Part shown: piece after piece, positions 31,341 to 63,636 of the stretch | Layout of the letters: each line of letters opens with the position of its first letter | Numbering within the stretch: position 1 is the stretch's first letter | DNA from: Planctomycetota bacterium | GTDB lineage: Bacteria; Planctomycetota; UBA8108; SXIK01 | NCBI GenBank assembly: GCA_965223845.1 | Contig: CBDCXR010000004.1 | Location: 192,001 to 256,000, forward strand | Direction: 5' to 3' | DNA: 64,000 bases | Program-made: the position numbers and the translations under genes | The notes under the pieces: model-generated | Seen by the model: only the letters and a program-made list of their open reading frames with translations | What the model was told of the DNA's origin: nothing | The model's database searches: none

Positions 31341-34300
31341 ATGGAGTATCGCGTGCTGCGCTCGACTACCCACCGCCACCGTCCGCAGCGACACTGCGGG
31401 CGATCGAGGGAGCGGCTCGTCTCTCGCGCGTCCGGCGTGTTCGGGCGTTCTCGATCCGACGGCGCCGTTCTGATCATCGCGCTCGGCGTTCTTACGATCA
31501 TGGCGATCCTCGGAACCGCGTTCGCTCAGCTCATGCGTCTCGAGCGGCGCGCCACCGAGAACTACATCGAGTCGCGGAGCATGGACTTTCTCCTCGACTC
31601 CGCGCTCAACCGCGTCGTCGCACAGCTCCAGGGCTCGAAGAACTTTCGAAGCTATTCCGTCTACCGCGATACGCCGTGGCTCTTTCGGCTGCGAGACGAG
31701 GACACGCTCGGACACGGTCGAGCGGATATCAAGGACCCTCGAGTCAGCAGCTGGGCCATGTTCGCTCGTCGGAGCGGGACGGAGCAGTGGTTCTCGACGA
31801 AAGTCCTCGACTGCACCTCGCAGATCAATCTGAACGGCCGGCAGGACACTCTCGCGCGCATGCTCGAGAACCTGGGCGAGGCGATCAAGCGCAGTGAGCG
31901 CCTGAAGCGCGACGGTAATCCCACCTTCAATCCGCTCTACACTGGGCCGCGCGAAAGCGGAAACCGCGTGACGGGGGCGCAGATCATCCAGCTCCGCCGT
32001 CGTCTCCCTGGCGGGCGCTTCACATCGAAGACGCAGCTGAAGCAGCTCATCGGGCCAGAGAACTATCGGCTGATCCGCGACTTCGTGACCTGCTTCGGGT
32101 GGGAGGATCCCTACACCCAGCGTCCCGATGACGGCAACTTCGAAGTGCCGGAGCTCGTCGGAGGGGGCGGCGCTCTCGGGGGAGCGGGAACCGCAGGGCA
32201 GCGGCAGCCCGCGGCGTCGGACAAGCCGCGGGTCTCGACCGAGCCGCGGTATCCGATCAACGTCAACACGGCGCCGCGAGAAGTTCTCATCGCGACGATC
32301 TGGGGACTCGCGGGGCGACGGGTCTTTCCGTTCTCGTTCATCGGCGGATCCGCGGGTGGTGCCGCGGCGACGATGTCGTCGATCGATGCAAACGCGACGA
32401 TCCTCGGCCAACGACACGCGCTCGGCGAGGAGGAGGTGGGAAGCGTTCTCCCGCGGGCGATTTTCGTCTATTCGCCGCGGTTCGAGTACGCGACCGCGGA
32501 GAAGCTCGCCGACCGCATCATCAGCGAGCGCAAGATCCGTCCGTTCATCGCCTGGCGGACGAACGATGCGGGGAAGCCGGGATTCGAGGACTTCATCGAC
32601 GGTCTCGAACAGAGTTTCTTCCCGCCGTGGCAGAACGCGCTCGTCATCGATCCGGATCAACCGGCCAACCGTCAGATCCGCCGACTCGTCATGTTCGGCT
32701 CGCAGACGAGCCCGGTGACGCGGCGCTGGGTGCGCGGAACGGCGATCGGTTCGGTGCGAAGCATCTACCGCTCGCTCGGTCGCGCGTTCCACGACAGCTA
32801 CGCGTGGTATTACGAGATGATCAAGGCCGTCGTGAAGGCGAACTTCAATCCGAATACCCGCATCAATCGCTACAATCCCAACCAGCCGGCGTTCATCGAG
32901 TCCGACAAGTCCGATCTCGTCTGGGCCCAGGATCAGTTCAACCTCCTTAAGGGTTACACGACCGAGTATTGCTTCGACACGAACGGGTACTACGAGATCT
33001 CGACCGTGGGGCAGATCGGACCGATCGAGGAACGCGTGGGCGGAGGCGGGACGACGGTCGTCTCGGGATCCTCTCGCGCGCGGCGCGGACGGACGGGACT
33101 CGATATGTTGCCGCCGTTCGAACGTCCGTTCGAGCGACAACTGCGCACGGTCGTCCAGGTGTTCAACGTCCTCCGGCACACGAACCAGTTCCATTTCGAG
33201 AAGACGTTTCAGAGCGCCCCGGGCTCGAAGAGCAGCGAGAACAACCGGAACTACGTCGTCACGTGGCCCGATCCGATGGAGGCCCTCACGGAGCTCGTCT
33301 CCGGCGGAAGCGTTCGCGACGGTCGCGTCGAGCTCGCGGGACTTCTCGACGGCCGGCGCCTCGATGGTCAGTACCAGCAGCGACAGCAGCTCTACAACAA
33401 TCCCGTGCTCACGTTCGCCCAGGGCTTCGACGCGCGGAGCGCCCAGTCGCTGTCGCGGATTCGCCGGATCCGGCAGGGGAGAGGAAACGCGCTCGGCGAC
33501 GAGTTCAGCGACGCGGTGAAAGATGCGCTCGACGCTCCGTACAGCCGGCTCGGTCGGACGAAGTTCTACCGGCGCAAGCAGCTCGTCGAGATGTCGGTCT
33601 TCACGAATCCGTCGGCGTCCTACCTCGATCCGTTCGTCAATCGCGAGCAGATCGGGACGGATATTTTCCCCGACGGCTTTCACTCGTCGATCCTGCGATC
33701 GACGCACATCGGTTCTCGCGTGCTCGCGTACCCCGCGCGCCAGCGTCTCGATCAGGGGCGCGAAGAGTCCGCGGCGGTCCGGGTCGGCGCGTCGGGTCTC
33801 GGCTCGCGCGGCCAGAATCTCCTCGGAAACGTTCCCTATTACCGCGGTGGCATCGGCTTCTGGGTGAAGTTCGACTTCGACGGCGACGACCCGGTCTTCT
33901 CGGGACTCGTCGGGTGCACGCAGGTCATCAAGGAAGTGTCACCGAACGCGAGTGATTACACCGGCTCGGAGGGCTCGCAGTTCTTCGTGTTCAAGAACTC
34001 GCGCGGCGAGCTTCGAATCGTGCGGATGTACTACCACCAGGCCTACATCCACTCGACTGGCGGAGGTGGGGGTGGCGGAGAGTCGGGCGAGCCGCTGTAC
34101 CCGGTGGTCGAGGCCAGCGCCGGAGGCACGGCGGACGATCGCAACCCGATCCTCGATTACCTCGATCCCGAGAAGCTGGTCTCGCGGACGGACTTGCTCG
34201 TCAACATCAGCCACTTCCGCGCGCATGAGTGGCACCACATCGGCATCGACTGGGACGATCGGAACCCGCGTCAGGGCCTTCGTCTCTTCCTCGACTTCAC

Positions 34301-35087
34301 CGAGATCAAGCAGGGCGGAGGACCGATCTTCCCGCAGGCGCCGTCGCTCGTGGGATCGGCTTCGACTTGGGTTCGGCTCAATGAGCGGCAGCCGAAGGAC
34401 AGCCTGACGATCGGCGGCATCATCCGCGAGCAGGGCGAGTCGAACTTCGGGATCTTCAAGTGGTTCACGAACACGACGAGCGCCGGCGGAGGCACGGGCG
34501 GCATCACCGCAGTCGCGCGTGAGGTGAAGCGTCTCATGGCGAACGCGACGATCGACGAGTTCGTCGCGTTCGACGGCAAGTTTCCCTCCGTACGGACGTA
34601 CTACGGAAACACGGCGCCGGGGTACTTCACGAACCAGCAGGGAGAGTACGCGAATCTCTTCGAGATCCCGCTCCCGCCGCACGTCGACTCGGTCGTGCTG
34701 CGCTCGCTCGATTGGACCTCGTATTATCCGACGACGTACACGGATTCGACGCCGAACTCGATCCCGGCCCGGGTTCGCCAAACCGACCCGATCCAGTGCG
34801 AGGCGCACTTCATCGCGCCGGGGCGTGGCACCTTGCCCGGGGCGTTCTCCGAGCCGTGGCGGGTGCAGGAGCCCGTCAATCGCATCGCGGGCCGAAAGGC
34901 CGGTCGCCGGCAGTCCGGACTCAAAGGGAACAACGCGCAGCTCGCGTACGTGTTCCGCATGCGAGCCGGTCAGGGATCCACGGGGAACACGTCGGGTGGA
35001 AACGTCGCGACGCCTGTGATCGACGACGTGACCTTGACTTACTTTTTGCCGAATCCGAGAATCCTCCTCCAAGAGGAGATCGAGTAA
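31341..35087 (+). CDS. Giant GspK/PilX-like minor (pseudo)pilin with C-terminal LamG/concanavalin-like domain
   Basis: Basic leader, G|AVLIIALGVLTIMAILGTAF (no Glu5, K/X-type); GspK-like D..SQINLN and PINVNTAPREVL; LamG-like GGIGFWVK, EWHHIGIDW, ANATIDEF. Confidence 0.7.
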   Translation: MEYRVLRSTTHRHRPQRHCGRSRERLVSRASGVFGRSRSDGAVLIIALGVLTIMAILGTAFAQLMRLERRATENYIESRSMDFLLDSALNRVVAQLQGSKNFRSYSVYRDTPWLFRLRDEDTLGHGRADIKDPRVSSWAMFARRSGTEQWFSTKVLDCTSQINLNGRQDTLARMLENLGEAIKRSERLKRDGNPTFNPLYTGPRESGNRVTGAQIIQLRRRLPGGRFTSKTQLKQLIGPENYRLIRDFVTCFGWEDPYTQRPDDGNFEVPELVGGGGALGGAGTAGQRQPAASDKPRVSTEPRYPINVNTAPREVLIATIWGLAGRRVFPFSFIGGSAGGAAATMSSIDANATILGQRHALGEEEVGSVLPRAIFVYSPRFEYATAEKLADRIISERKIRPFIAWRTNDAGKPGFEDFIDGLEQSFFPPWQNALVIDPDQPANRQIRRLVMFGSQTSPVTRRWVRGTAIGSVRSIYRSLGRAFHDSYAWYYEMIKAVVKANFNPNTRINRYNPNQPAFIESDKSDLVWAQDQFNLLKGYTTEYCFDTNGYYEISTVGQIGPIEERVGGGGTTVVSGSSRARRGRTGLDMLPPFERPFERQLRTVVQVFNVLRHTNQFHFEKTFQSAPGSKSSENNRNYVVTWPDPMEALTELVSGGSVRDGRVELAGLLDGRRLDGQYQQRQQLYNNPVLTFAQGFDARSAQSLSRIRRIRQGRGNALGDEFSDAVKDALDAPYSRLGRTKFYRRKQLVEMSVFTNPSASYLDPFVNREQIGTDIFPDGFHSSILRSTHIGSRVLAYPARQRLDQGREESAAVRVGASGLGSRGQNLLGNVPYYRGGIGFWVKFDFDGDDPVFSGLVGCTQVIKEVSPNASDYTGSEGSQFFVFKNSRGELRIVRMYYHQAYIHSTGGGGGGGESGEPLYPVVEASAGGTADDRNPILDYLDPEKLVSRTDLLVNISHFRAHEWHHIGIDWDDRNPRQGLRLFLDFTEIKQGGGPIFPQAPSLVGSASTWVRLNERQPKDSLTIGGIIREQGESNFGIFKWFTNTTSAGGGTGGITAVAREVKRLMANATIDEFVAFDGKFPSVRTYYGNTAPGYFTNQQGEYANLFEIPLPPHVDSVVLRSLDWTSYYPTTYTDSTPNSIPARVRQTDPIQCEAHFIAPGRGTLPGAFSEPWRVQEPVNRIAGRKAGRRQSGLKGNNAQLAYVFRMRAGQGSTGNTSGGNVATPVIDDVTLTYFLPNPRILLQEEIE

Positions 35088-48723: not shown

Positions 48724-49090
48724 TGGGACCTCCGGGAGAGAGCGGCGGCCGGTCGGCCGCGGCGTGGTGGGGAACGGGATGGCCTCGATTTCCGTGCATT
48801 TTCATCGCCCGCGCCGTCGATGTCAGGAAAAGAAATCTCGAGGAACCGAGCCGCGGTGGACCGGTTCGGAGATGATCGTAGAGCGACGGGCATTCAGCCG
48901 AGTCCAGTCCCGCCCCGGGCTCCGAGCACGCGCGCGTCGGGCGGATCCGGGGGCTCGCCACAGGGAGACCCCCTCGGTCCGTGCGGTTCGTCGTCCGAAT
49001 GCGAACGAACACTCCCCTCACTCCCTCTCAGGCTTCGCCTGCGATTCGCGGCGGGAGCTCAGGCTGAACGTGCAAGTTTCCCGCAATATA

Positions 49091-52000
49091 ATGCTTCCTA
49101 TGGTTGCTCGCGCCGTCCTCCTCACCGTAATTCTCCTCGCCGCCGTCTCCGGGAATGACGTGTCGGCGCGAGATCCGTGGGGGCCCTCGGACGCCGACAT
49201 CGTCATCAGCGAGGTGCACTATCACCCCCCGGGGGATCGTGGCACGCTCGAATTCGTCGAGATCCACAACTCGGGTGTCCACTGGGTCGATCTCTCCGGA
49301 TGGGAATTCACCTCGGGCATCCGGTTTCGCTTTCCCGATGACACCTTTCTCGCTCCGGGGGCGTTTCTCGCCGTCGCGCGCAACGCCGAAAAGCTGCGGG
49401 AGGCCTACGGCGAGATCGCTGTCGTCGGCGACTTCAAGGGGCGCCTCGGAAACTCGGACGAAGTGCTCGAGCTCCGCTCCCGTTCGGGAGCGACGTCCGC
49501 GTGGCTTCACTACTACGACGGGCGCGACGCGTGGTTCGACGTCTGGCCGCGCGAGCCCGACGGCGACGGACCGAGCCTCGAGCTCATCCAGCCTCACCCC
49601 GACTGGCAGGCCGCGTGGTTCTGGGCACCGAGCCGCGTTCCCGGAGGAACTCCGGGCGAGGAGAACTCGGTGTGGTACCGAGTAGGGCACTCGGACTCCG
49701 ATACGCCGCCGATCGCGCCGGGGATCGAGATCGCGGAAGCGAGACTCACGGGGACCTCGCCCTTCGTCGAGATCTACAACGCGGGATCGAAAACGGCGGA
49801 CCTCGGGCGACTTCGATTGACGCGCGACGTCCGAGGCCGCGAGGGGATTCCGCTGCGTGGCACGCTAGCGCGCCGCCAGCGTACGGTCATCGAAGGAGAC
49901 GCTGTTGCAACGCTTGTCGATGCACCGGGGCGCGTCCTCCTGCTCGTGGCGGACGCGTCGCGGGAACTCGTCGACAGCCTTCCGCTCAAACGTCCGCCGG
50001 AGGGAGGAAGCGCCGGCCGCGATCCTCTCGGCGAGCTGACGGTGTTCGAGGACGCTACACCGGGGAAGGCGAATCCGGCTGCGAACGTACCGGCGGTCGT
50101 CATCACCGAAGTCCATTACCACCCGCGCGACGACGTAGCGGGAGAAGAGTTCGTCGAGATTCACAACGCGGGGAAGTCGGCGGTCGACCTCACCGGATGG
50201 ACGCTCGCTCGAGCCGTCGACTTCGAGTTTCCGGAAAAACTCGTTCTCCGCGCGGGAGCGTACGCGGTTGTTGCGAAAGACGTCGACAAGCTCGGCGCGA
50301 AGGTGGGCGCCGCCGGACGCTCACGCGTCGTCGGTCCGTTCAAGGGGCGGCTGAGCAATTCGGCGGATCGATTGATCCTGCGCGATGCTTTCGGACGCCT
50401 TGTCGACGAGGTGCCGTACTCCGACCGGACTCCGTGGCCCGGAGGAGCTGACGGGACCGGTTTCTCGATCGAGCTCCTCCACCCCGGGATCGATAACCGA
50501 TGGGGCCGAGCGTGGACGCTCGGACCGATCGGCGGGACTCCCGCGGCGAAAAACGCTCGCGCGAAGAGCTCCGTTCCGCCGACGATCGCGCACGTCGAGC
50601 ACCGTCCGGCGATCCCGCGACCCGGCGAGCCGCTTCGCATCCATGCATGGGTCATCGGGACGTCGCGCGCTCGCGTCTCCGTGCTCTATCACTCCGCATC
50701 GGGAACACGGAAGGTCACGCGAAAGTCGATGGCCGATCGCGGGCGGACGGGCGACGGCGCGTCGGGCGACGGGCATTTCGCCGTCACCCTGCCGCGGTTT
50801 CAGGCCGGCGCGCGCCTCGGTTACTCGGTCGTGACTTCGGGCCGCTCCCCGTCCCGTTTTCCGTCCAACGCGAAGGAGGAGCTCTACGTCGGAGTCGCGC
50901 CACCGGCCGATCCCGCGGCTCCGGGGGCGGTCACCTACGCACTTTGGATGGCGCCGGCGTCGTGGGACACGCTGGTCGCGGCGCGAAAGCGTTCGAAACC
51001 GGAGGTCTCGTGCACCCTCGCCGCCGAGGTCTCGGGTCGCGGTGTGCGCGCGTACCGCGGAAAAGTCGCGCACCGGGCTCGCGTTCGCTTCCGCGGAAAC
51101 AACTCCTTCGTCGGCGGCGACGTGACGCTCTTCTCGTATCGAGTTCGTCTGCCCGATGCGATTCGGTTCGATGGACGGAAACGCATCAATCTCCACGGCT
51201 ACAAGACGCATCGCCAGAAGGCCGGGAGCGAGGTTCTCCGTCGCGCCGGTCTGCCGGCGCCGAAGGCGACGTGGTGCCGACTGTGGGACCCCGAGCAGTT
51301 TCACGGGGCGGGTTACCTCGATGTCGAGGTCGTCGACAGTTGTTTCCTCGAAGCACGGTACGGCTCGTCCGCGGGGGAAATCTTCCGCGGGAAGCGCGGC
51401 CGTGAGATGGGAAACTCGTTCGGCGCGGACTTCAGCTACCACGGCACCGATCCCGCACCCTATCTCAAGGTCTACGTGCGCGCCAACAAGAGCGAGCGAC
51501 TCGAAGCCGACGAGCTGATCGCCCTCATCGCAGCTCTCAACATCAAGGACGACGACGAGTACGCGGAGAAAATCCCCGAGCTTCTCGATGCGGGCGAGTG
51601 GGCGCGCTATTTCGCGGCCAACAGCGCGATCGGAAACAACGAGGGCGGCCTCACGACGGACGACGCGGATGACTACTACCTCGCGCAGCGCCCGACCGAC
51701 GGTAAGTTCATCCTGATTCCCTGGGATCACGACACGACCTTCGTTGCTCCGAAGCAAAAGCTCTTTCGTCCGCGAGTCGCGGCGATTCGGCGGTTCCTCC
51801 GTCACCCCGCGATTGCTCCGCTCTACCGGAGCGCGCTCCGAGAGACCCTCGACGGCCCTCTTTCGGCGGCGTCGTTTGCGCGGCGGCAGCTCGCGTCGCG
51901 GGAATTCGCGACGCTCGAGGAATCGAACGAGCTCGACGCCTTCGTCGTCGGCCGTCGCGAGTTTCTCGATCCGCGAACTCGCTTCCGAGTCGGGGTGGGA

Positions 52001-53284
52001 GTGATCGACGCGACGGGCTCTCTCGGCGGGGGCTTCGGCTGGAGAACGTTTGCGACTCGTTCTTTCGACGAGGTGCAGCTCGGCGGCATCGTCGATCCGG
52101 GGCTCGTTCGGGAGGTGCGGGTCGGCGACCTGTCGGCCGCGGTCGATCCGCTCTCCGGGTCATGGCGTCTCACCATGCTCTCGAGCGGACTCGCGATGGG
52201 GTCGAACGCGTACTGGGTCTCGTTAATCGACGCTGCGGGTGGGCTGCGGGAGCTCCGCTCACTCAATCTCGAGGTGGTGCCGCGTATCCATCGCGTCGGC
52301 GGACGTCTCGCCGGGACGGTGAGCTGGTCTCCTGATGCCGGCGTGGTTCGCCTCGAGGACACGGTCGTCGTGTCGGGCGGGGCGACACTCACGGTGGCCG
52401 CGGGCACTCAAATCATCGGCGCCCCGGGAGCTCTGCTCGACGTGCGCGGGCGGCTCCGAGTCGAGGGAACGGAGGAGAATCCGGTCGGATTCTACGCGGC
52501 GTCGAGCGAGCCTTGGAACGGGATCGATCTCGGCGACGGCGTCGCGGTCGAAGCCGGCGCGCGTCACACCCTCGAGCACTGCTGGATCAGCGGCGCCGAG
52601 CGATCGAGCGAGGGACGGGAACTCGGCGCGGCGGTGTTCGTCGCCGGGGCGAACGTCCGCCTTCGCGGGGTGCGCATCGCCGAGACGCGCGGGACGGCGC
52701 TCGCGGTGCGCGGCGGGCACATCGCGCTCGAGGACGTCGTGATCGCGGACGGTGAAAGCGGCGTCCGCGTCGTCGACGGAACGATCGCCGCGCGCGGCCT
52801 CGCGCTCCGCCGACTCTGGGGCGATGGCCTGGTGCTCGTTGACAGCGGGAGCGGTGAAGCGCCCCTCCGCGACCTCCGGGTCAGCTCGATCGGCCGTCGC
52901 GGCATCGCCGTGGCAGCGGGATCGGTTGCGATCGAGAGCGGCCACGTTCGCGACGCGATGGTAGGAATCGAGCTCAGTCGCGGAACGCGGGTGAAGGCGA
53001 GCGAGCTCGTTCTGACGGGTGCGGCGCGAGCGATCGTTTTCCTCGGCGAGCCGACGACGCGCCCGCCGCGGCTCGCGCTTCGCCGCTCTGTCATCTGGCC
53101 GCATACCGAAGCCGTTGTCGGACGCGGGACGCTCGAGTTCATCGACTGCGTCGCCCCGCCCTACGGCGACCCCTCTGCGGCCATCGACGCCGACGGGATC
53201 ACCTCGGAGTTGCCGGCCTTCGCAGCGCCGCAATGGGGTGATTTCCGTCGCCGACCGCCCAGCTCCGTCGAGACGCGTTCTTAA
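49091..53284 (+). CDS. Exported lamin-tail-domain + CotH kinase-like + right-handed beta-helix protein
   Basis: Signal peptide; LTD motifs IVISEVHYHP..EFVEIHNSG..VDLSGW..GTPG (2 clear, 1 degenerate); CotH-like RFRGNNS, YYLAQRP..IPWDHDTTF; beta-helix start VVSGGATLTVAAGT..LRVEGTEENPV. Confidence 0.85.
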   Translation: MLPMVARAVLLTVILLAAVSGNDVSARDPWGPSDADIVISEVHYHPPGDRGTLEFVEIHNSGVHWVDLSGWEFTSGIRFRFPDDTFLAPGAFLAVARNAEKLREAYGEIAVVGDFKGRLGNSDEVLELRSRSGATSAWLHYYDGRDAWFDVWPREPDGDGPSLELIQPHPDWQAAWFWAPSRVPGGTPGEENSVWYRVGHSDSDTPPIAPGIEIAEARLTGTSPFVEIYNAGSKTADLGRLRLTRDVRGREGIPLRGTLARRQRTVIEGDAVATLVDAPGRVLLLVADASRELVDSLPLKRPPEGGSAGRDPLGELTVFEDATPGKANPAANVPAVVITEVHYHPRDDVAGEEFVEIHNAGKSAVDLTGWTLARAVDFEFPEKLVLRAGAYAVVAKDVDKLGAKVGAAGRSRVVGPFKGRLSNSADRLILRDAFGRLVDEVPYSDRTPWPGGADGTGFSIELLHPGIDNRWGRAWTLGPIGGTPAAKNARAKSSVPPTIAHVEHRPAIPRPGEPLRIHAWVIGTSRARVSVLYHSASGTRKVTRKSMADRGRTGDGASGDGHFAVTLPRFQAGARLGYSVVTSGRSPSRFPSNAKEELYVGVAPPADPAAPGAVTYALWMAPASWDTLVAARKRSKPEVSCTLAAEVSGRGVRAYRGKVAHRARVRFRGNNSFVGGDVTLFSYRVRLPDAIRFDGRKRINLHGYKTHRQKAGSEVLRRAGLPAPKATWCRLWDPEQFHGAGYLDVEVVDSCFLEARYGSSAGEIFRGKRGREMGNSFGADFSYHGTDPAPYLKVYVRANKSERLEADELIALIAALNIKDDDEYAEKIPELLDAGEWARYFAANSAIGNNEGGLTTDDADDYYLAQRPTDGKFILIPWDHDTTFVAPKQKLFRPRVAAIRRFLRHPAIAPLYRSALRETLDGPLSAASFARRQLASREFATLEESNELDAFVVGRREFLDPRTRFRVGVGVIDATGSLGGGFGWRTFATRSFDEVQLGGIVDPGLVREVRVGDLSAAVDPLSGSWRLTMLSSGLAMGSNAYWVSLIDAAGGLRELRSLNLEVVPRIHRVGGRLAGTVSWSPDAGVVRLEDTVVVSGGATLTVAAGTQIIGAPGALLDVRGRLRVEGTEENPVGFYAASSEPWNGIDLGDGVAVEAGARHTLEHCWISGAERSSEGRELGAAVFVAGANVRLRGVRIAETRGTALAVRGGHIALEDVVIADGESGVRVVDGTIAARGLALRRLWGDGLVLVDSGSGEAPLRDLRVSSIGRRGIAVAAGSVAIESGHVRDAMVGIELSRGTRVKASELVLTGAARAIVFLGEPTTRPPRLALRRSVIWPHTEAVVGRGTLEFIDCVAPPYGDPSAAIDADGITSELPAFAAPQWGDFRRRPPSSVETRS

Positions 53285-55308: not shown

Positions 55309-56654
55309 AACGCTTCTCGCGCATTCTCATCGCGAACCGCGGCGAGATCGCTTTTCGGATCTTGCGCGCGTGTAAGGAGATGGACATCGAGACGGTCGCC
55401 GTCTACTCCGAGGCGGACCGGAACTCGGTGCATCTCGAGCACGCCGATGAGACGATCTGCATCGGTCCCGGGCCGAGCCTCAAGAGCTATCTCGACATCT
55501 CGAAGATCATCAGCGCGGCAGAGATCACCGACGTCGACGCGATCCATCCCGGGTACGGGTTCCTCGCCGAGAATCCGCACTTCGCCGAGGTCTGCCGGTC
55601 GTGTCACATCGAGTTCATCGGCCCGAGCGTCGAATCGATCCGTCTGCTCGGCGACAAGGGACGGGCTCGCTCGCTGGCGGCGGAGGCCGGAGTGCCCTGC
55701 GTGCCGGGAAGCGAGGGCCTCGTCGGCACGGAGCAGGAAGCGCTTCGCGTCGCGGAGGAGATCGGCTATCCGGTCATGATCAAGGCCGTCGCCGGTGGTG
55801 GGGGGCGCGGAATGCGCGTCGCGCACAACGAGATCAGCCTCGTGAGCGGCTGGATGGCCGCTCGCGTCGAGGCGGAAGGCGCGTTCAACAATCCCGACGT
55901 CTACATCGAGAAGCTGGTCGAGAAGCCGCGGCACGTCGAGATCCAGGTGCTCGCCGATCGTCACGGCGAGGTGGTCCATTACGGTGAGCGAGACTGCAGT
56001 CTTCAGCGGCGGCATCAGAAGCTCGTCGAGGAGGCACCATCGCCTTCGATCGGTCCCGAGACCCGCGAGGCGATGGGCGAGGCGGCGAAGCGTCTGATCC
56101 GCGCGGCTGGATACTACAACGCCGCGACGGTCGAGTTCCTCGTCGACCGCGATCAGAACTTCTACTTCATCGAGGTCAACACACGCATCCAGGTCGAGCA
56201 TCCGGTTTCGGAGTTGATCACGGGGCGCGATCTCATCCGCGAGCAGATCCGCGTCGCGAGCGGCGAAGCGCTCGGCTACGGTCAGGAAGACATCGAGTTT
56301 CGCGGCTGGGCGATCGAGTGCCGCATCAACGCGGAAGATCCCGCTAACGACTTCAAGCCGAACGCCGGAACGATCACGCGCTTCGACCTCCCGGGGGGAC
56401 GCGGGGTGCGGGTCGATACCCACGCGCGAGCCGGCTACAAGGTCCCGCCCTTCTACGACTCGATGATCGCGAAGCTGATCGTCCACGGCGACACGCGCGA
56501 CGCGGCGGTCGCCACCATGCGGCGGGCGCTCGACGAGTTCCAGATCGAAGGCGTGAAGACGACGATCCCGCTCCACAAGGAGATTCTCCGGCATTTCCAC
56601 TTCGTGAAGGGGAAGGTCGACACGGGGTTCATCGAAGAGCACTTCATGAATTAG
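55305..56654 (+). CDS. accC: Acetyl-CoA carboxylase biotin carboxylase
   Basis: [50 protein letters not shown]; GTGA overlap with accB. Confidence 0.98.
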
Positions 56655-56707
56655 CCAGCAAACAAGCGCGGACGCGCTTGTTTGCTGGCTAATTCATGTT
56701 CCTTTTG
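56645..56707 (+). terminator. Perfect 26-bp inverted repeat across the accC stop codon, probable terminator
   Basis: CATGAATTAGCCAGCAAACAAGCGCG-GA-CGCGCTTGTTTGCTGGCTAATTCATG, then TTCCTTTTG. Confidence 0.75.
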
Positions 56708-57070
56708 AGGGGGCATTCGCGAAGCCCCCTCGCTGGCGCGGCGAAGCCGCGCCAGCTTCACCCCGCCGAGCGCGCCTTCGGCGCGTTACGCGATCGGCTA
56801 GAGGTGAATCGATCGATTCCAGCCGATCCGGCTCTCGGAGTGAGTTTGCTCGGATCGAATCGGAGTCGGCTGCCCCGTGGTCTGCGGCGGAGCGTCGAGG
56901 GGGGGCATTCGCGAAGCTACCTCGCCGGCGCCGCGACGCCGCGTCAGCTTCACCCCGCCGAGCGCGCGCTCGGCCCGTTGTGCGGTCGGTTAGGGGGCGC
57001 CGTCGATCGCCGCCCTTGCGATTTTCGGAGTGAGTTAGCCCGGACCGAATTCGGGCCGGACTTCCCCGCG
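56707..57070. repeat. Two imperfect direct repeats (~190-bp period) made of short hairpins (REP/BIME-like)
   Basis: GGGGGCATTCGCGAAGC, CAGCTTCACCCCGCCGAGCGCGC and CGGAGTGAGTT recur in units starting 56707 and 56897. Confidence 0.75.
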
Positions 57071-57252: not shown

Positions 57253-57538
57253 TGGAGCTTCGGTCTCAAGAACCTTTCCTGAACAGGGTTTAGCCTCTCT
57301 TCCCCCGCCCTCGGCGAGCGTTTTCGCGGTAGGCCGTCGGCCGCGAGCCGGAGCCGCCTCTCGGGTAGGTGTTCCGGCGCCGCCCGCGGTCTTTTCCGGG
57401 TGCGACGATCGCCGCAGCGCGATCCCGCGCGGCGGTCCTCCGAGGGAACAAGCGCAGAGCTCCGGGCGGGCCCCGTCCCCAGCTCGTCAGCGCGGCCGCA
57501 CGGGAAGAGCACGAAGCCTCTATCGGAGTATGAACGTC

Positions 57539-58129
57539 ATGTTGAAGAGCATGTGGAAGAGAAGCGGTGGATTCACGCTCATCGAGCTGCTGATCGTCAT
57601 CGCGATCATCGGAGTTCTGGCCGGGCTCGCGCTGAAGGCGATCTCGTCCGTGCAGGAGTCGGCGTCGCAGGCGACGACCACTTCCCAGGTCGCGGCGATC
57701 GCGAACGCTCTCGAGTCCTATCTCTCCGATGAAGGTGCGCTCCCCGGCGCCTCGCGAAAGAACATCGACGAAGACGACAATCTGTTCCCCGAGCTTTTCA
57801 ATGCGCTCCTCGACGAGAAGAAGCCAAAAGGAAAGGGCGGGCGGAGTGCTCCTTATCTCGACGTGAAGGAAGACGATGTTCACGTTTGGGATGACGACAT
57901 TGGCGAGTATCGGAAGGCCAAGCGTTCGGAGCGTTTCGACAACGAGGTGGACAAGTTCATCGTCGACTCCTGGGGTCAGCCGCTCGTCTATCGCCCGAAC
58001 AAGGGAAAGCGTCGCCAGCCGTGGATGCACAATCCGAGCGGCGCTGACATCTACTCCGTCGGATCGGACGGGGAAGATCAGACGAAAGAAGGCAGCGACG
58101 ATTCGAATGACGACATCGGAAACTGGTGA
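57539..58129 (+). CDS. Type II/IV (pseudo)pilin, GspG-like
   Basis: KRSGG|FTLIELLIVIAIIGVLAGL; ALESY, DSWGQPLVY, DIYSVGSDG..DDIGNW; start 57530 or 57539. Confidence 0.9.
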   Translation: MLKSMWKRSGGFTLIELLIVIAIIGVLAGLALKAISSVQESASQATTTSQVAAIANALESYLSDEGALPGASRKNIDEDDNLFPELFNALLDEKKPKGKGGRSAPYLDVKEDDVHVWDDDIGEYRKAKRSERFDNEVDKFIVDSWGQPLVYRPNKGKRRQPWMHNPSGADIYSVGSDGEDQTKEGSDDSNDDIGNW

Positions 58130-58172
58130 TCCGAGCGAACGTGGAAGACGTGCCTCGAACGCGGACGGAACG

Positions 58173-58931
58173 ATGACGACGAAGTACGAGTGCCGGGGCT
58201 ACGTGCGCGGCGCGGCGTTTCGCGAGCGCGAACTCCCGCCCGCCGCAATCCGTGACCGTCGCCGCCGAGGCTTCACGCTCATCGAGGTCCTCATCGTGGT
58301 ATCGATCCTCGCGGCGCTCTTCGGTCTCGCGATCACCGGTACCGGGAGCTACATGGGGAAGGCGTCGGAGAAAGCGACGGTGTCCGTCGTGGTTCGCGTT
58401 CAGAGCTGGATGGATGAGTACCGCTCGCTCACCGGGTTCTACCCGCCGGACGGACTCGACAGCCGCGAGCGCACGAAAGAGGACCGCACCGAGCTGCGTG
58501 GTTCGGGCGCTCTCTACTACCACCTGACGCGTCGCGTCGTCGCCGAAGAGCTGATCGGAAGCCGACGGCGGCTGCGGGATCATCCGGCGGTGGCGCAGAT
58601 CTCGGGTAGCGAGACCATCGACGAGCATCCCGACTATCCGGGCGTTCACGAGATTCGCGACGGCTACGGAAATCCCTTTCACTACGACAACACGACGAAC
58701 GGGAAGTACCGCCCGCAGGACGGTTCGGTCCACTACCACGAGATCGAAGAAGCGGACCATCCGGAGGACCCGCGCGAGGGAACGCGCGAAATCGATGGCA
58801 AGCCCGTCGTTCGTCGGACTGGAATCCAGAGTCCGAAGTACGATTTCTGGTCGCACGGGGCGCACGGGCACGATCCCGGTGAAGAGCCGAGCATGCCGAT
58901 TGCGACGTGGAACATTCGCAGCTTCGATTGA
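58173..58931 (+). CDS. Second GspG-like (pseudo)pilin
   Basis: RRRRG|FTLIEVLIVV; EYRSLTGFYPP, DGYGNPFHY, YDFWSHG..IATW. Confidence 0.85.
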   Translation: MTTKYECRGYVRGAAFRERELPPAAIRDRRRRGFTLIEVLIVVSILAALFGLAITGTGSYMGKASEKATVSVVVRVQSWMDEYRSLTGFYPPDGLDSRERTKEDRTELRGSGALYYHLTRRVVAEELIGSRRRLRDHPAVAQISGSETIDEHPDYPGVHEIRDGYGNPFHYDNTTNGKYRPQDGSVHYHEIEEADHPEDPREGTREIDGKPVVRRTGIQSPKYDFWSHGAHGHDPGEEPSMPIATWNIRSFD

Positions 58932-58948
58932 CGGTCGGGAGAGAATCC

Positions 58949-59728
58949 GTGTTCACACGAGCCGATAGAACAACGCGCGGGGGGCGTCCGGCTGGCTTCA
59001 CGATGGTGGAGCTGATCGTCGTGATCGGCATCATCATCCTCGCGGCGGGAATGATGGCTCCGACCATCACCGAGTTCTTCAAGAATCGCCACCTCCAGCA
59101 GGTGATGCGCGAGTTCGGCGGCACGATCAACTCGGCTCGGCTGCGCGCGGTGAACGAGCGCACGCGAGTTCACCTCGTGTTCTTCAAGGAAGGGATCCGA
59201 GTGTACGACGCGCGCGAGAACCGGTTCGTCGACGATCTCTTCGACGCGTCGGCGTCTCCGTTCAATGACGACAAGATTTGGTACGTGCTCGGATTTCAGG
59301 ACCGCGCGTTCAATATGGACCTCGCCGGATACGAGGGCTGGGCGAAGACGCATCTTCCGCGAGAGGGCAAGGACGCGAAGAAGAAGCCCGTGCGGCGCCG
59401 TCGAGGGCCAGCGCCGAAGGAAGCTCCGCTCAATCTCGACGGTCTTCCCCAGATCGTGTTCCAGCGCGACGGCAGCGCGGAGTTCAAAACCGGAACCGAC
59501 GTCATGACCGAGCTCTTTCGGCGTGATCCGCCGGCGAGCGGTGACATCATGGTGTTCAGCACGGGCAACACGAACGGCGGGTTCATCGACATTAGCAACA
59601 ACGGGCAGAGTCGGAGTCGACTCGCGCTCCTCGAGAGCGAACCGGAGACCGCCGAAAAGATGAAAGAATCGTTTGCGGGCGAAGGCTCCCGCAAGAAAAA
59701 GCGGCGAGGGCGGAGGCGATCGTCATGA
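58949..59728 (+). CDS. GspH/FimT-like minor pilin
   Basis: PAG|FTMVELIVVIGII; INSARLRAVNER; IVFQRDGS. Confidence 0.85.
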   Translation: MFTRADRTTRGGRPAGFTMVELIVVIGIIILAAGMMAPTITEFFKNRHLQQVMREFGGTINSARLRAVNERTRVHLVFFKEGIRVYDARENRFVDDLFDASASPFNDDKIWYVLGFQDRAFNMDLAGYEGWAKTHLPREGKDAKKKPVRRRRGPAPKEAPLNLDGLPQIVFQRDGSAEFKTGTDVMTELFRRDPPASGDIMVFSTGNTNGGFIDISNNGQSRSRLALLESEPETAEKMKESFAGEGSRKKKRRGRRRSS

Positions 59729-60546
59729 ATCGACCACTCGAACAGTCGACGCCTACGGCCGATCCTCGCTCGGGGTTCACGATCCTCGAGATCATGATCG
59801 CGACGGCGATCTTGACGCTCGGGCTCGTCGGCATCCTCGCGCTCTTTCCGGTCGCGATTTTCACCGGAAAGCGCATCGTCGAGCAGTCGACAGCGGTTGT
59901 CATCGCCGAGTCGGTCGCCGAGGCGATTCGCGAAGGGGTGCGCAACAACCTCCGGTACAACCGCTACGGACAGCCGTACTTCGTATTCAAGCACGACGGG
60001 GTCACGGACCCGATCCCGCTCCAGCAAGAGCGCGAGCGCTACTCGCACGATTACTACATCCTGCTCCCGGGATACCGGCGCGCGCAGTTTTCCGGTCGAA
60101 CCGCGCGCGACAAGGCGATGGACTCCGCGAAGACCTTTCTCTTTCCCGAAACGGATTCGGCGAAGAATGGGAACGGACGCCAGGAGCGCGCCGACAACGA
60201 CGCCGACGACTACACTTACCGGTTCGAAAACGGTGAGTCGTACAAAGACATCTGGGTGGAGAAGACCTACTCGCTGGGGAACTATCTGCCCGGTCTCGAG
60301 GCGGAAGGAATCCGCGTCCTCCGGGATCAGAAGATCGACGCGATCCGGCAGTACTCCTACGCGTTCGCGATCTCTCCGAGCTACAACGACGCGAACATCA
60401 CGCTCAGTCCGAACTCCGACGCGTACCGGCCGGCCGGGCGATTGTTCCACGTTCGCATCATGATCTTCCGGAGCTTCGTTCCCGTCGAGAAGGGCGCAGA
60501 GTCGCCCGTACCGGTCTACGAGCTCGACTTCGAGGTCGCCATATGA
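59725..60546 (+). CDS. GspI/PilV-like minor pilin
   Basis: RSG|FTILEIMIATAILTLGLVGILALFP; ATGA overlap. Confidence 0.85.
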   Translation: MNRPLEQSTPTADPRSGFTILEIMIATAILTLGLVGILALFPVAIFTGKRIVEQSTAVVIAESVAEAIREGVRNNLRYNRYGQPYFVFKHDGVTDPIPLQQERERYSHDYYILLPGYRRAQFSGRTARDKAMDSAKTFLFPETDSAKNGNGRQERADNDADDYTYRFENGESYKDIWVEKTYSLGNYLPGLEAEGIRVLRDQKIDAIRQYSYAFAISPSYNDANITLSPNSDAYRPAGRLFHVRIMIFRSFVPVEKGAESPVPVYELDFEVAI

Positions 60547-61919
60547 TGTCGCCTGCGTTCGGTTCCGATCCCGATCGTTCCACGCGCCCGCGCGCACCGA
60601 AGCGGACGAGTGGATTCACGCTCATCGAGCTGATGGTCGCCCTGATGCTCGCGGCCATCGTGTCGATGTCGATCATGATGATCTCTTCGCAGGCGCGCCT
60701 CGCCTACGAAGAGACCGTGAAGAAAGTCGACGTCTACAATCGCTTTCGGTTCGCTTTGCAGCAGCTCGAGAACGATTTCAAGAACTGGATTCCGACCGGC
60801 GATCTCGAGTTCTACCAGGACGGAAGTGGTCGAGCGGGCAAGCTGAACAGCCACTGGGATCCGGGCGAGGAGGTTTCGGATGTCCGCGACGCCTTCGGAC
60901 TCGGCGTTCGCGATGGCGGAACGTATCGCGAGTACGACGAGTTCGCGTTCATCGAAGAGCGACATTACAAGAGCCGGGAGCCGGATCCCGAAGATCCCGA
61001 GACGCGCGAGCACGCGGCCTTCCGCGCTTACTTCCAGACGATGACCTACGTCGATGGCGCGATGCGCCTCGCGAACGTCGAGTACTACCTCGCCGATCCC
61101 AAGAAGACGATGGGAAACGGCAGTCGCGCGCCTGGTTTTCCGACTGTCGTCGAACCGGAACATGTTCCGAACCTCTCCCTGATCAAGGTCGTTCGCTACT
61201 ACGAGATCACTCACGGGTCGATCCAGAAGGTGAATGAGACACCCGTCAAGCGCCGAGTGATCGAAGTTGCGACGAACGTGACCGACTTCCGCGTCGAGTA
61301 CACGGTCGATCCCCAGCTCGAGCAGCGCCGGCGCTCGAAGAGCGAGATCGAATTCTTCACTCCGGAATCGGAGTACAAGGCGCCGTTTGAAGTCGCGCTC
61401 AAACCCGAGCGCATCGAGAGCGGCGTCTACCGGCGGAGCTTCGGTTATGGAAGCGTGAAGCTGGACCAGTCCTTCGATCTCGCGACCGCGGAGCCCGACT
61501 TCCGCGGCGACCGCCGGGTCGGATTGAACAACGGGCGTCACGCACCAGTGCGAGTGGGCTTTAAGGGAAACACTCGCGTGCGTTTTGCGCAGCTCGTCCC
61601 CGGCGATCGGATCTTCCTCTTCACCGAGGGAAATCGGGCCGCTCGCGCACAGGGTGGAGGCGGCGGAGGGGCTGGACTCGCCAATCTCGTTCGGTTCTCC
61701 GCCGGCGACTACACGGTGAAGACGAACCTCAACGGCCTCCTCGAGCTCGAGGAGGACATCGACTCGACGGAGTGGGGCGGCCAGACTCAGTCCGGCATCC
61801 TCTACAAGGCGCCGTTCCTTCCGTCCGCGGTGCGGATCACGATGCGCATCGTCGACGACAAGGGGCTGAACCCGAAGACACTCCAGAAGACCGTCTGGCT
61901 TCGGCGTCGCTCGCGCTGA
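60543..61919 (+). CDS. GspJ/PilW-like minor pilin
   Basis: TSG|FTLIELMVALML; ALQQLENDF; VATNVTDFRVEY; LPSAVRITMRIVD. Confidence 0.85.
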   Translation: MMSPAFGSDPDRSTRPRAPKRTSGFTLIELMVALMLAAIVSMSIMMISSQARLAYEETVKKVDVYNRFRFALQQLENDFKNWIPTGDLEFYQDGSGRAGKLNSHWDPGEEVSDVRDAFGLGVRDGGTYREYDEFAFIEERHYKSREPDPEDPETREHAAFRAYFQTMTYVDGAMRLANVEYYLADPKKTMGNGSRAPGFPTVVEPEHVPNLSLIKVVRYYEITHGSIQKVNETPVKRRVIEVATNVTDFRVEYTVDPQLEQRRRSKSEIEFFTPESEYKAPFEVALKPERIESGVYRRSFGYGSVKLDQSFDLATAEPDFRGDRRVGLNNGRHAPVRVGFKGNTRVRFAQLVPGDRIFLFTEGNRAARAQGGGGGGAGLANLVRFSAGDYTVKTNLNGLLELEEDIDSTEWGGQTQSGILYKAPFLPSAVRITMRIVDDKGLNPKTLQKTVWLRRRSR

Positions 61920-62133: not shown

Positions 62134-63573
62134 TTAGGAGACGACCCGGTCCGCGTTCATCGACATGAGGAACTCGGCGTTCGTCTTGAACTGCTTGAGC
62201 TTCGTCTTCAGCAGCTCCATCGCTTCGACCGGATTCATGTCGTGGAGGACTTTGCGGAGCACCCAGATCCGGCGCTGCTCCTCGGTGTCGAGGAGGAGCT
62301 CCTCCTTTCGCGTTCCTGAGCGCGTGATATCGATCGCCGGCCACACGCGCTTGTCGGCGAGCCGCCGATCGAGATGGAGCTCCATGTTGCCCGTCCCCTT
62401 GAACTCCTCGAAGATCACCTCGTCCATGCGACTCCCGGTGTCGATGAGCGCAGTCGCGATGATCGTCAGGCTGCCGCCCTCTTCGATGTTTCGCGCCGAG
62501 CCAAAGAAACGCTTCGGTTTTTGTAGCGCGCTCGCATCGACGCCGCCGGAGAGGATCCTTCCGGAGTGGGGTACTTCGGTGTTGTAGGCGCGCGCGAGCC
62601 GCGTGATGGAATCGAGGAGGATCACGACGTCGCGGCCGTACTCGACCATGCGCTTCGCCTTCTCGATCACCATCTCCGCGACCTGAACGTGACGGGCGGC
62701 GGGCTCGTCGAAAGTCGAGCTGATCACTTCGCCCTTCACCGAGCGTTCCATGTCCGTGACTTCCTCGGGCCGCTCGTCGATGAGGAGCACGATGAGGTCG
62801 ACCTCGGGATTGTTCCGCGAGATGCTGTTCGCGATCTTCTGGAGGATGATCGTCTTTCCCGTGCGCGGAGGCGCGACGATCAGGCCGCGCTGCCCTTTTC
62901 CGATCGGGGTGACGAGATCGATGATGCGGTTTTCGACTCCGGTCGGCTCGCATTCGAGGATGAGACGCTCCTCAGGGTAGAGGGGCGTCAAGTCATCGAA
63001 GTTCGCCTTGCTGTGAAGTCGATCCGGCTCTTCGTAATTGATCGCCTCGACGCGGAGGAGCGCGAAGTAGCGTTCGTTCTCCTTCGGCGGCCGGATTTGG
63101 CCCGAGACCACCGCACCGGTGCGGATCCCAAATCGACGGATTTGGGACGGCGAAATATAGATGTCGTCGGGGCAAGGATAGTACGAGTAGCGCGGAGAGC
63201 GAAGAAAGCCGAACCCGTCGGGAAGGACCTCGAGCACGCCTTCGCCGTACATGAGACCGTTCTGCGACGCGCGCTCCTTGAGCAGCTTGAAGATGAGATC
63301 CTGTTTCTTCAGACCGGCGTACTCGGTGATCCCTTCGGATTGCGCGAGCTCGTGGAGCTCGGCGATCGTCATCTTCTGCAGCTTGCCGACGTGGAGGCTC
63401 TCCCGATCGTCGTTCGCAGCGGTGCGTTCGAGCTGCTCGGCCTCTTCTTCGAGCTCTTCGTCGCTCGGCAAACCGGTGACGGCGCGCCCGCTTTTGGTCG
63501 CCTTTCCCGCCTTCGCCGGCTGGCTGTCGGCTCGCTTCTTACGCGTGTTGCCGCGCGTCTTAGCCGTCGCCAT
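62134..63573 (-). CDS. rho: Transcription termination factor Rho
   Basis: [66 protein letters not shown]. Confidence 0.99.
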
Positions 63574-63636
63574 GATCAAGTCTCCGTAAATGATGGTTGG
63601 CTGGGTTGAGTCCCCGCATTGCCCCGAATTCCGTGC

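What the first reader, a model, noticed from the sequence alone, without database searches (positions are those of the whole stretch)
57539..61919. Stand-alone G-G-H-I-J (pseudo)pilin operon with enlarged subunits and no K, ATPase, platform or secretin
Seen: five consecutive genes with G|FTxxE sites in canonical order, the last three joined by ATGA overlaps. There are two different G-like subunits, and the I-like (273 aa) and J-like (458 aa) proteins carry large inserts. The operon ends at convergent rho, where K/PilX would be expected. Known: H-I-J-K (FimU-V-W-X) form the tip complex of type IV filaments. Inference: an interchangeable tip cassette of a PVC-type filament system that uses a shared motor, completed by the giant LamG-bearing K at 31341. 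This is my best candidate for an undescribed system in this window.
Basis: partly seen in the sequence, partly recalled or inferred. Interest (0 to 1): 0.75.

Follow-up and report, generated by a model that had tools for sequence, protein, structure and literature searches.

The report
Conserved planctomycete pseudopilin operon, K elsewhere
Five neighbouring genes encode the shaft and small tip subunits of a secretion-type or pilus-type filament in an uncultured planctomycete; the set is fixed and inherited vertically, and its missing cap is probably a giant lectin-bearing protein encoded 22 kb away.

Summary
Five co-directional genes (57530-61919) each carry a G|FTxxE prepilin site. No other such site occurs in the window's six frames. 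The last three genes are joined by ATGA overlaps, and the operon ends 214 nt from convergent rho. Family scans give the order GspG-like, second G-like, H, I (PilV/GspI), J. All are 1.5-2.7 times the canonical length, and all but G1 and H score below curated cut-offs.

The block is not an interchangeable cassette. The arrangement accB-accC-G-G'-H-I-J facing rho-coaE recurs in 35 loci from mostly Planctomycetota-labelled genome bins, and the J tree mirrors the AccC tree. It also includes the shaft subunit, so it is more than a tip set.

No locus has a K-like gene within 10 kb. The 1248-aa protein at 31341 is the only K-like gene in the window. It has a GspK-type N-terminus without Glu5 and a lectin-like jelly-roll C-terminal part. 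Its family shares four other contigs with the J family. H, I, J and K match Verru_Chthon cassette proteins D, B, C and A one to one, weakly.

That K caps this filament is probable but unproven: the complex prediction never ran. I class it as a new variant of a known kind.

The parts
56645..56698 (+). Perfect 26-bp-arm hairpin overlapping the accC stop codon (accC ends 56654) and followed by a T-rich tail. It is terminator-like and marks the pseudopilin genes as a unit separate from accBC.
57530..58129 (+). G1: GspG-type major (shaft) pseudopilin, 199 aa. It has a G|FTLIE site and a conserved C-terminal ...SxGxDG...DDIGNW, with about 60 extra residues in the middle.
   Evidence: Pfam N_methyl 1.9e-9 and T2SSG 26.6 bits against a cut-off of 21. 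TIGR01710 64.1 bits, under the 88.85 cut-off. PDB GspG chains 5wda (N-terminal part) and 2kep (C-terminal part). T2SSG matches 18 of 18 homologues. Alignment A5.
58173..58931 (+). G2: second, more divergent G-like pseudopilin, 252 aa, with a 32-residue leader ending in the cleavage Gly before FTLIE.
   Evidence: N_methyl 2.5e-8 and T2SSG 0.019, under the cut-off. TIGR01710 N-terminal part 7.8e-8. T2SSG at E<=0.01 in 9 of 21 homologues.
58907..59728 (+). H-like minor pseudopilin, 273 aa, GTG start, G|FTMVE site.
   Evidence: PF12019 GspH 21.2 bits against a cut-off of 21. TIGR01708 1.7e-7 and Verru_Chthon D 2.3e-6, both under their cut-offs. GspH and Verru_Chthon D each match 21 of 21 homologues. 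Weak FimU 4ipu hit, E 0.17.
59725..60546 (+). I-like (PilV/GspI-type) minor pseudopilin, 273 aa, G|FTILE site, ATGA overlap with H.
   Evidence: PilV 1.6e-5 and GspI 2.1e-4, N-terminal 55 residues only and under the cut-offs. Among 26 homologues: PilV 26, GspI 9, Verru_Chthon B 9. Atlas nearest clusters score 0.98; they are N_methyl proteins of 259-278 aa, mostly from Verrucomicrobiota. Overlap read.
60543..61919 (+). J-like minor pseudopilin, 458 aa, G|FTLIE site, ATGA overlap with I. The model shows one long N-terminal helix and two beta-rich parts.
   Evidence: N_methyl 3.2e-7. Among 26 homologues: Verru_Chthon C 19, GspJ 17, all under their cut-offs. Model pLDDT 79.5. The only pseudopilin fold hit is EpsJ 3cfi_H: probability 0.80, TM 0.43, E 0.098, rank 29. 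Overlap read.
31341..35087 (+). Giant K-like modular pilin, 1248 aa, and the probable cap. The leader ends ...SDG|AVLIIAL with no Glu5. The N-terminal part is GspK-like, the C-terminal part is a ConA/LamG-like jelly roll, and the last 30 residues are strongly conserved.
   Evidence: T2SS_GspK 3.2e-8 over residues 40-165 (33.5 bits, cut-off 130) and Verru_Chthon_A 4.4e-5. Among 34 homologues: GspK 29, Verru_Chthon_A 17. A K-type N-terminal site without Glu5 was found in 22 of 33 homologue rows. Model pLDDT 83.6, pTM 0.84. Fold hits to laminin LG, neurexin LNS and other lectin-like jelly rolls. Atlas neighbours carry PF13385. C-terminal conservation 0.73-0.77 against a mean of 0.54.

Best explanation
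The five genes are the filament module of a type IV filament machine of the GspG (type II secretion) class, in an uncultured Planctomycetota lineage. All five proteins are made with a class III signal peptide. A prepilin peptidase would cut after the Gly, and an ATPase and platform encoded elsewhere would lift the subunits out of the inner membrane. G1 forms the shaft and G2 is a second, rarer shaft-type subunit. H, I and J form the initiation or tip complex.

The operon is a fixed, vertically inherited core locus between accBC and rho. It is not a mobile or exchangeable cassette. The cap that a G-H-I-J set normally needs is most probably the unlinked giant K-like protein at 31341. That protein is a modular pilin: its GspK-type N-terminal module docks on I-J, and its lectin-like jelly-roll modules sit at the filament tip to bind a glycan or a cargo.

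Shown: gene content, order, prepilin sites, family assignments, conservation, synteny, vertical descent, the K-like N-terminus and the lectin-like fold of the giant protein.

Inferred: the roles of the subunits, that K belongs to this filament, that its conserved C-terminal strand completes the K pilin sheet in cis, and that the machine genes lie elsewhere.
For: - Prepilin sites occur in all five genes and nowhere else in the window.
- G1 is GspG-like in 18 of 18 homologues, with the DDIGNW-type C-terminus (reading that motif as a GspG hallmark is recalled).
- Across homologues: H matches GspH in 21 of 21; I matches PilV in 26 of 26 and GspI in 9 of 26; J matches GspJ in 17 of 26.
- All five genes are detected in 29 of 35 related loci. 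Five of the other six are cut by a contig end, and one (L030) lacks a detectable H.
- accBC lies upstream in the same orientation in 27 loci, and convergent rho lies downstream in 28.
- A 4-nt start/stop overlap is possible at the H/I junction in 15 of 27 loci and at I/J in 18 of 31.
- The J and AccC trees share both main clades at 100/100. The J-clade label needs one change on the AccC tree, and 0 of 500 shuffles do as well.
- Pairwise identity of J tracks AccC as closely as rho does: Spearman 0.86 against 0.864 (pairs are not independent).
- K has a GspK-type start without Glu5 and is the only such site in the window.
- The K and J families have hits whose longest contigs are of equal length: 9,179,496, 680,287, 308,148 and 89,024 bp, plus the window's own 7,869,199 bp.
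- H/I/J/K correspond one to one to Verru_Chthon D/B/C/A.
- K homologues with large insertions, and 1200-aa tip proteins, are described for other filaments (PMC13533445, sections 10-11). So are lectin-type modular pilins (PMC8179133, passages).
Against: - No machine gene (ATPase, platform, secretin, peptidase) lies in the window, so the class of machine is inferred from the pilins alone.
- Apart from G1 (Pfam T2SSG) and H (Pfam GspH, 0.2 bits over the cut-off), every match to G/H/I/J/K models is under the curated cut-off. Most cover only the N-terminal helix.
- The J model has no significant fold match; EpsJ scores E 0.098.
- GspK is not among the 50 fold hits shown for the K model. Profile searches of PDB sequences find no GspI, J or K.
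- K is never within 10 kb of the operon: 0 of 35 loci.
- Co-occurrence rests on equal contig lengths in five cases, not on a full presence/absence profile.
- Other pilin sets elsewhere in the 7.9-Mb genome could own K, or could supply a normal K.
- No interaction test was obtained.
- A 135-kDa cap is unusual for a periplasmic secretion pseudopilus.
Confidence: 0.6

Rival explanations
1. The operon is the pseudopilin part of an ordinary but scattered type II secretion system. Its own K, of normal size or absent, is encoded elsewhere. The giant protein at 31341 then belongs to a different filament, for example a type IVa pilus set elsewhere in the genome, or acts alone.
For: K is 22 kb away and never within 10 kb of the operon in 35 loci. 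Its neighbours are recA and purD, not pilin genes. Only 64 kb of a 7.87-Mb contig could be read. The search for shorter K relatives returned only 10 truncated fragments and has limited reach.
Against: The same search found no normal-size K-like relative. K is the only Glu5-less site in the window. K-family and J-family hits share contig lengths in five cases. The four families map one to one onto the Verru_Chthon cassette proteins.
Confidence: 0.25
2. One reading: an exchangeable tip cassette, one of several, that plugs into a shared motor to give filaments with different tips.
For: Shared machines primed by alternative minor-pilin sets are known in cyanobacteria (PMC13759059, abstract). No motor genes lie near the operon.
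Against: The block carries the shaft subunit G1. It holds one fixed position between accBC and rho in the loci examined. The J tree is congruent with the AccC tree. There is no second set in the window or in any locus.
Confidence: 0.07
3. The filament works without any K-type cap, and the enlarged J (458 aa) takes over the capping role.
For: J is 2.4 times the GspJ profile length, and its model has a second beta-rich part at residues 274-452. The J family is conserved full-length.
Against: J keeps Glu5 and a standard G|FTLIE site, unlike caps of the K type. A conserved K-like family exists in the same genomes.
Confidence: 0.08

Closest known systems
Type II secretion pseudopilin operon gspG-H-I-J-K, with the GspK-GspI-GspJ tip complex (Korotkov and Hol 2008; seen only as a reference entry, otherwise recalled)
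   Same: The gene order is G, H, I, J. All have class III signal peptides with Glu5. G1 has a GspG-type C-terminus. The K-type protein lacks Glu5.
   Different: There are two G-like genes. No K is adjacent. Every subunit is 1.5-4 times longer. All curated equivalog cut-offs are missed. No gspC/D/E/F/L/M/O lies nearby.
Verru_Chthon cassette proteins A-D (NCBIfam TIGR02600, TIGR02598, TIGR02599, TIGR02596). That these form a four-gene cassette in Verrucomicrobia and Chthoniobacter is recalled from the family names; no paper was found.
   Same: The correspondence is one to one: H-D in 21 of 21 homologues, I-B in 9 of 26, J-C in 19 of 26, K-A in 17 of 34. Protein A's profile is 1296 positions long, close to K's 1248 aa.
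   Different: All scores are far under the cut-offs (for example 21.6 against 332.3 bits for A) and cover mostly the first 60-70 residues. Here K is unlinked and two G genes precede H. The locus appears once in each stretch examined and is fixed in position.
K-type tip subunits with large insertions, and large tip proteins: CpaL/TadG, the Thermus and Vibrio competence-pilus K homologues, MshQ, PilC/PilY1 (PMC13533445, sections 10-11)
   Same: A large protein sits at the apex. A pilin-like N-terminal module is combined with a conserved extreme C-terminus that could donate the last beta-strand.
   Different: Pfam finds no PilY1/PilC family in K, and the top fold hits are jelly rolls.
Modular pilins with a lectin module, such as S. 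sanguinis PilC and PF13385-bearing pilins (PMC8179133, passages)
   Same: A pilin module is fused to a ConA-like/LamG lectin module that is presumed to be exposed at the tip.
   Different: K is far larger and multi-domain. It is of the Glu5-less K type and is encoded away from the other pilins.
Cyanobacterial alternative minor-pilin sets that share one machine (PMC13759059, abstract)
   Same: Minor-pilin sets are encoded away from the motor genes.
   Different: There, two sets exist per genome and prime two different filaments. Here only one set was seen, and it includes the shaft gene.

Membership tests
Type IV pilin / pseudopilin superfamily | Class III signal peptide: a short basic leader, Gly, then F/M-T-x-x-E and a hydrophobic helix | tested here: met
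   The site is present in all five genes. N_methyl is over its cut-off in four of the five; H scores 17.2 against 21.2 bits.
GspG major pseudopilin | Reaches the curated family score | tested here: inconclusive
   G1 passes Pfam T2SSG (26.6 against 21 bits; 18 of 18 homologues). It misses the NCBIfam equivalog TIGR01710 (64.1 against 88.85). G2 is under both cut-offs.
GspH / GspI / GspJ minor pseudopilins | Reaches the curated equivalog score | tested here: not met
   H: 31.4 against 80. I: 21.7 against 44.35 (PilV 25.4 against 52.2). J: 16.2 against 64.85. Only Pfam GspH is reached, 21.2 against 21.
GspH / GspI / GspJ minor pseudopilins | Pilin fold like the solved GspI-J-K subunits | tested here: inconclusive
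   The J model's best pseudopilin hit is EpsJ 3cfi_H, with E 0.098 and TM 0.43.
GspK / PilX-type cap (31341 protein) | Prepilin-type N-terminus without Glu5 | tested here: met
   The site reads G|AVLIIAL, with Ile at position 5. A K-type site without Glu5 was found in 22 of 33 homologue rows.
GspK / PilX-type cap (31341 protein) | Reaches the curated equivalog score NF037980 | tested here: not met
   33.5 against 130 bits. Residues 40-165 match profile positions 2-104 of 307. 29 of 34 homologues match at E<=1e-3.
Complete type II secretion system | GspD secretin, GspE ATPase, GspF platform and a prepilin peptidase in the genome | not testable with these tools
   None in the 64-kb window. The rest of the 7.87-Mb contig could not be read.
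Verru_Chthon cassette A-D | Reaches the subfamily scores for TIGR02600, TIGR02598, TIGR02599 and TIGR02596 | tested here: not met
   In the window proteins: A 21.6 against 332.3, C 13.1 against 256.5, D 27.9 against 70, and B not hit. Homologues hit all four weakly.
Verru_Chthon cassette A-D | Four genes adjacent in one cassette | tested here: not met
   K lies 22.4 kb upstream of G1 and is absent from all 35 loci within 10 kb.
Modular pilin (31341 protein) | A pilin module plus a module of a fold not specific to pilins | tested here: met
   K-type N-terminus. ConA/LamG-like jelly-roll fold hits with E down to 2.4e-5. Atlas neighbours carry PF13385.
PilY1 / PilC tip adhesins (31341 protein) | A PilY1/PilC family match | tested here: not met
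   No PilY1/PilC Pfam family at E<=0.1. The top fold hits are jelly rolls, not PilY1/PilC.

The most novel reading that the evidence does not exclude
A distinct PVC-wide subclass of type IV filament. In it, a GspG-class shaft with uniformly enlarged H, I and J subunits is capped by a roughly 1200-aa fusion of a K pilin and an adhesin. The fusion would carry lectin modules and donate its own conserved C-terminal strand to close the K pilin sheet. On this reading a secretion-type filament has become a glycan-binding or cargo-holding organelle. The Verru_Chthon cassettes would be its linked form and the planctomycete locus its split, core-genome form.
Probability: 0.3. Interest if true: 0.6.

Novelty: new variant of a known kind. 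Interest (0 to 1): 0.4.

Why it matters
Planctomycetota are major degraders of complex polysaccharides, yet their surface filaments and secretion machines are almost unstudied. I found no paper on this gene set or on the related Verru_Chthon cassette.

A conserved, single-locus filament module whose likely cap carries lectin-like domains gives a concrete candidate for how these cells hold glycans or load secreted enzymes.

It also offers a natural test of the recent model in which the apical K subunit must receive a terminal beta-strand before I-J will license assembly (PMC13533445). Here the K module and the adhesin would be one 1248-aa chain encoded away from its partners.

If K turns out not to belong to this operon, the locus is simply a divergent pseudopilin operon in a lineage with scattered genes.

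Tried and rejected
- Complex prediction of K (N-terminal 565 residues, later with the last 40 residues added) against the I-like protein never ran. The queue was full or the job was not sent. Searches gave no usable answer. There is therefore no result either way.
- Profile searches of PDB sequences with the J, I, H and K alignments found only N-terminal helix matches to pilins, plus a weak FimU hit for H.
- The fold search of the whole J model gave no hit at E<=1e-3.
- The search for shorter K relatives found only 10 truncated fragments of the same family.
- A 949-aa ORF after J in L010 looked like a possible K. Its translation has the look of an antisense artefact of GC-rich DNA, and it has no Pfam hit.
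- A 609-aa gene after J in L011 is a WD40 protein.
- The gene between J and rho in L001 is an APH-family phosphotransferase.
- Rfam found only one tRNA in the window.
- No sigma-70-like promoter was found upstream of G1.


Full report
**What is there.** The + strand between 57530 and 61919 carries five tightly packed genes:
- G1, 57530-58129, 199 aa.
- G2, 58173-58931, 252 aa. The start was read.
- H-like, 58907-59728, 273 aa, GTG start.
- I-like, 59725-60546, 273 aa.
- J-like, 60543-61919, 458 aa.

Every one has a basic leader ending in Gly, followed by F-T-x-x-E and a hydrophobic helix. A six-frame scan of the whole 64-kb window finds that motif at exactly these five places. It finds one Glu5-less variant, at 31461. 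Pfam N_methyl matches all five; the H-like one is under the cut-off. The ATGA overlaps at 59725 and 60543 are real. The J stop is 214 nt from the stop of convergent rho, so no K gene can hide there. A perfect hairpin with 26-nt arms (56645-56698) overlaps the accC stop codon (accC ends at 56654) and separates the block from accBC.

**What the subunits are.** G1 reaches the Pfam T2SSG cut-off (26.6 against 21 bits) but not the NCBIfam GspG equivalog (64.1 against 88.85). Its two ends match solved GspG chains. All 18 aligned homologues hit T2SSG and share ...DPWGxPYxYRxN...SxGPDG...DDIGNW. Reading that motif as a GspG hallmark is recalled. G2 is a weaker G-like protein, with T2SSG in 9 of 21 homologues.

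Scanning whole homologue sets gives a consistent picture:

| Set | Matches among homologues |
|---|---|
| H | GspH 21 of 21; Verru_Chthon D 21 of 21 |
| I | PilV 26 of 26; GspI 9; Verru_Chthon B 9 |
| J | Verru_Chthon C 19 of 26; GspJ 17 |

All these matches are under the curated cut-offs and mostly cover the N-terminal helix. Only Pfam GspH is just reached, 21.2 against 21.

The J model (pLDDT 79.5) has no significant fold match. The only pseudopilin neighbour is EpsJ, at E 0.098. Profile searches of PDB sequences see only pilin N-termini. So the order G-G'-H-I-J is well supported by sequence profiles and position, but formal membership of the curated equivalogs is not met.

The subunits are long against the profile lengths of 134, 169, 101 and 192. 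This is a family trait: medians are 219, 250, 222, 295 and 453 aa, with liberal start calls.

**Conservation and context.**
- The J family has 80 word-indexed relatives of about 450 aa.
- In a 1.84-billion-protein library it has 44 representatives at E<=1e-30, 123 at E<=1e-10 and 1851 at E<=1e-3.
- A genome scan with the J alignment returned 35 loci, all from genome bins. Of these, 28 are labelled Planctomycet*, 5 are unclassified and 2 are labelled as other phyla.
- tblastn with the window's proteins finds all five genes in 29 of 35 loci. Five of the rest are cut by a contig end, and L030 lacks a detectable H.
- accB-accC lie directly upstream in the same orientation in 27 loci and are inverted in L030.
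- Convergent rho lies downstream in 28 loci. L010 and L011 have other neighbours, and five loci are cut.
- A K-family hit occurs in 0 of 35 loci.
- A 4-nt overlap is possible at the H/I junction in 15 of 27 loci and at I/J in 18 of 31.

Trees were built from the 26 rows that have all five proteins and AccC. L003, L005, L009, L010, L012, L015, L024, L030, L034 and L035 were left out. The trees give the same two main clades (11 and 15 rows, 100/100 in both) and the same sub-clades. The window is sister to L001 in both. The J-clade label needs one change on the AccC tree, and 0 of 500 shuffles do as well. Pairwise identities of J follow AccC as closely as rho does: Spearman 0.86 against 0.864 (pairs are not independent).

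This is a vertically inherited core locus, not a cassette that moves or is swapped.

**The missing K.** Pfam finds no ATPase, platform, secretin or peptidase in 50 further ORFs of the window.

The 1248-aa protein at 31341-35087 lies between recA and an unknown gene followed by purD. Its site reads ...SDG|AVLIIAL, with Ile at position 5. It matches the NCBIfam GspK model over residues 40-165 (3.2e-8; 33.5 against 130 bits) and the start of Verru_Chthon A. Among 34 family members, 29 hit GspK and 17 hit Verru_Chthon A. A K-type site without Glu5 was found in 22 of 33 homologue rows; the other rows begin at an internal Met or lack a recognisable site.

The alignment consensus holds KViDCxxQINLNG and PININTAPEEVL. 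I recall these as GspK-like motifs; no tool tested this.

A model of residues 49-1248 is confident (pLDDT 83.6, pTM 0.84). Its fold neighbours are ConA/LamG-type jelly rolls: laminin LG4-5, neurexin LNS, and the lectin-like subdomain of clostridial neurotoxin binding domains. Identity is 8-11%, so this is a generic fold resemblance only. Atlas neighbours carry PF13385 (scores 0.78-0.86; leads only). Pfam itself gives no LamG hit. GspK is not among the 50 fold hits shown.

**Does K belong to this operon?**

For:
- It is the only K-type gene in the window.
- Its family has the same spread and identity range as J. K-family and J-family hits have longest contigs of the same length in five cases: 7,869,199 (the window's own), 9,179,496, 680,287, 308,148 and 89,024 bp.
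- H, I, J and K map one to one onto the four Verru_Chthon cassette families, whose A protein is also about 1300 aa. That those four are adjacent in Verrucomicrobia is recalled from the family names.
- The last 30 residues of K are among its most conserved stretches: 0.73-0.77 against a mean of 0.54. This fits the published model in which the apical K subunit needs a terminal beta-strand, given in cis or by a large adhesin, before I-J license assembly. That paper also lists K homologues with large insertions (PMC13533445, abstract and sections 10-11).

Against:
- K is unlinked everywhere I could look.
- Only 64 kb of the genome was readable.
- The co-occurrence evidence is thin.
- The search for shorter K relatives has limited reach.
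- I could not inspect model coordinates.
- The complex prediction never ran.

I put the pairing at about 0.6.

**Most likely mechanism.** A prepilin peptidase trims the five proteins and K. I-J, with H, and K form the initiation complex on a platform encoded elsewhere. G1, with some G2, then polymerises beneath it. K's jelly-roll modules end up at the apex, where they could bind a glycan or hold a cargo. Whether the filament stays periplasmic (secretion type) or reaches the surface (pilus type) cannot be decided from the pilins alone. G1 argues for the secretion class; the 135-kDa cap argues for a displayed tip.

**Comparison and novelty.** The set works like a gspG-K operon and like minor-pilin priming sets with large tip proteins, but it fails the curated membership scores. 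It resembles the Verru_Chthon cassette most specifically, again under the cut-offs, and differs in that K is unlinked. Lectin-type modular pilins are known (PMC8179133, passages). So are minor-pilin sets encoded away from a shared machine (PMC13759059, abstract).

I found no paper on this gene set. The searches were:

| Terms | Result |
|---|---|
| Planctomycetes + pseudopilin | 5 papers, none relevant |
| Verru_Chthon cassette | 0 papers |
| related term sets | nothing on this gene set |

Supplements were not consulted. I class the finding as a new variant of a known kind and of moderate interest.

Noticed in passing
window 56709-57059 (+), between accC and G1: Two copies of a GC-rich unit of about 160-190 nt (85% and 72% identical in its two parts). 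The unit folds into several hairpins (z -3.8; 0 of 200 shuffles fold as well). A 23-nt core occurs only at these two places in the window. It could be a regulatory leader or a repeat element upstream of the pseudopilin operon.
   Followed up: partly
window 46678-48723 (-): A 681-aa ORF with a hydrophobic N-terminus and long His/Glu/Arg (EREHH) and His/Asp/Glu (HDDEE) repeats. It causes the strong AT skew of this stretch and has no Pfam hit. It may be a metal-binding protein.
   Followed up: partly
window 48392-53284 (+): A 1630-aa protein with lamin-tail domains and a CotH kinase-like domain.
   Followed up: no
window 35251-36483 (+): A 410-aa protein directly downstream of the giant K gene, with a signal-peptide-like start and a Lys-rich tail. 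It has no Pfam hit. Whether it travels with K in other genomes could not be checked.
   Followed up: no
window 29596-30771 (+) and 62134-63579 (-): RecA and Rho both carry N-terminal extensions of about 60 residues, charged and Lys/Ala-rich, before the conserved domains start at residues 63 and 63-67.
   Followed up: no
window 1370-1855 (-): A FliN-type flagellar switch gene, which suggests a flagellated lineage.
   Followed up: no
L013 and L028 (whole loci): These records are titled Proteobacteria and Bacillota. They nevertheless nest inside the Planctomycetota clades in both the J tree and the AccC tree, so the bin labels are probably wrong.
   Followed up: partly
L001 11592-12551; L030 3643-5473; L010 and L011 downstream of J: Local departures from the conserved context. 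L001 has an APH-family phosphotransferase gene inserted between J and rho. L030 has accBC inverted. L010 and L011 have no rho after J; L011 has a WD40 protein there.
   Followed up: yes
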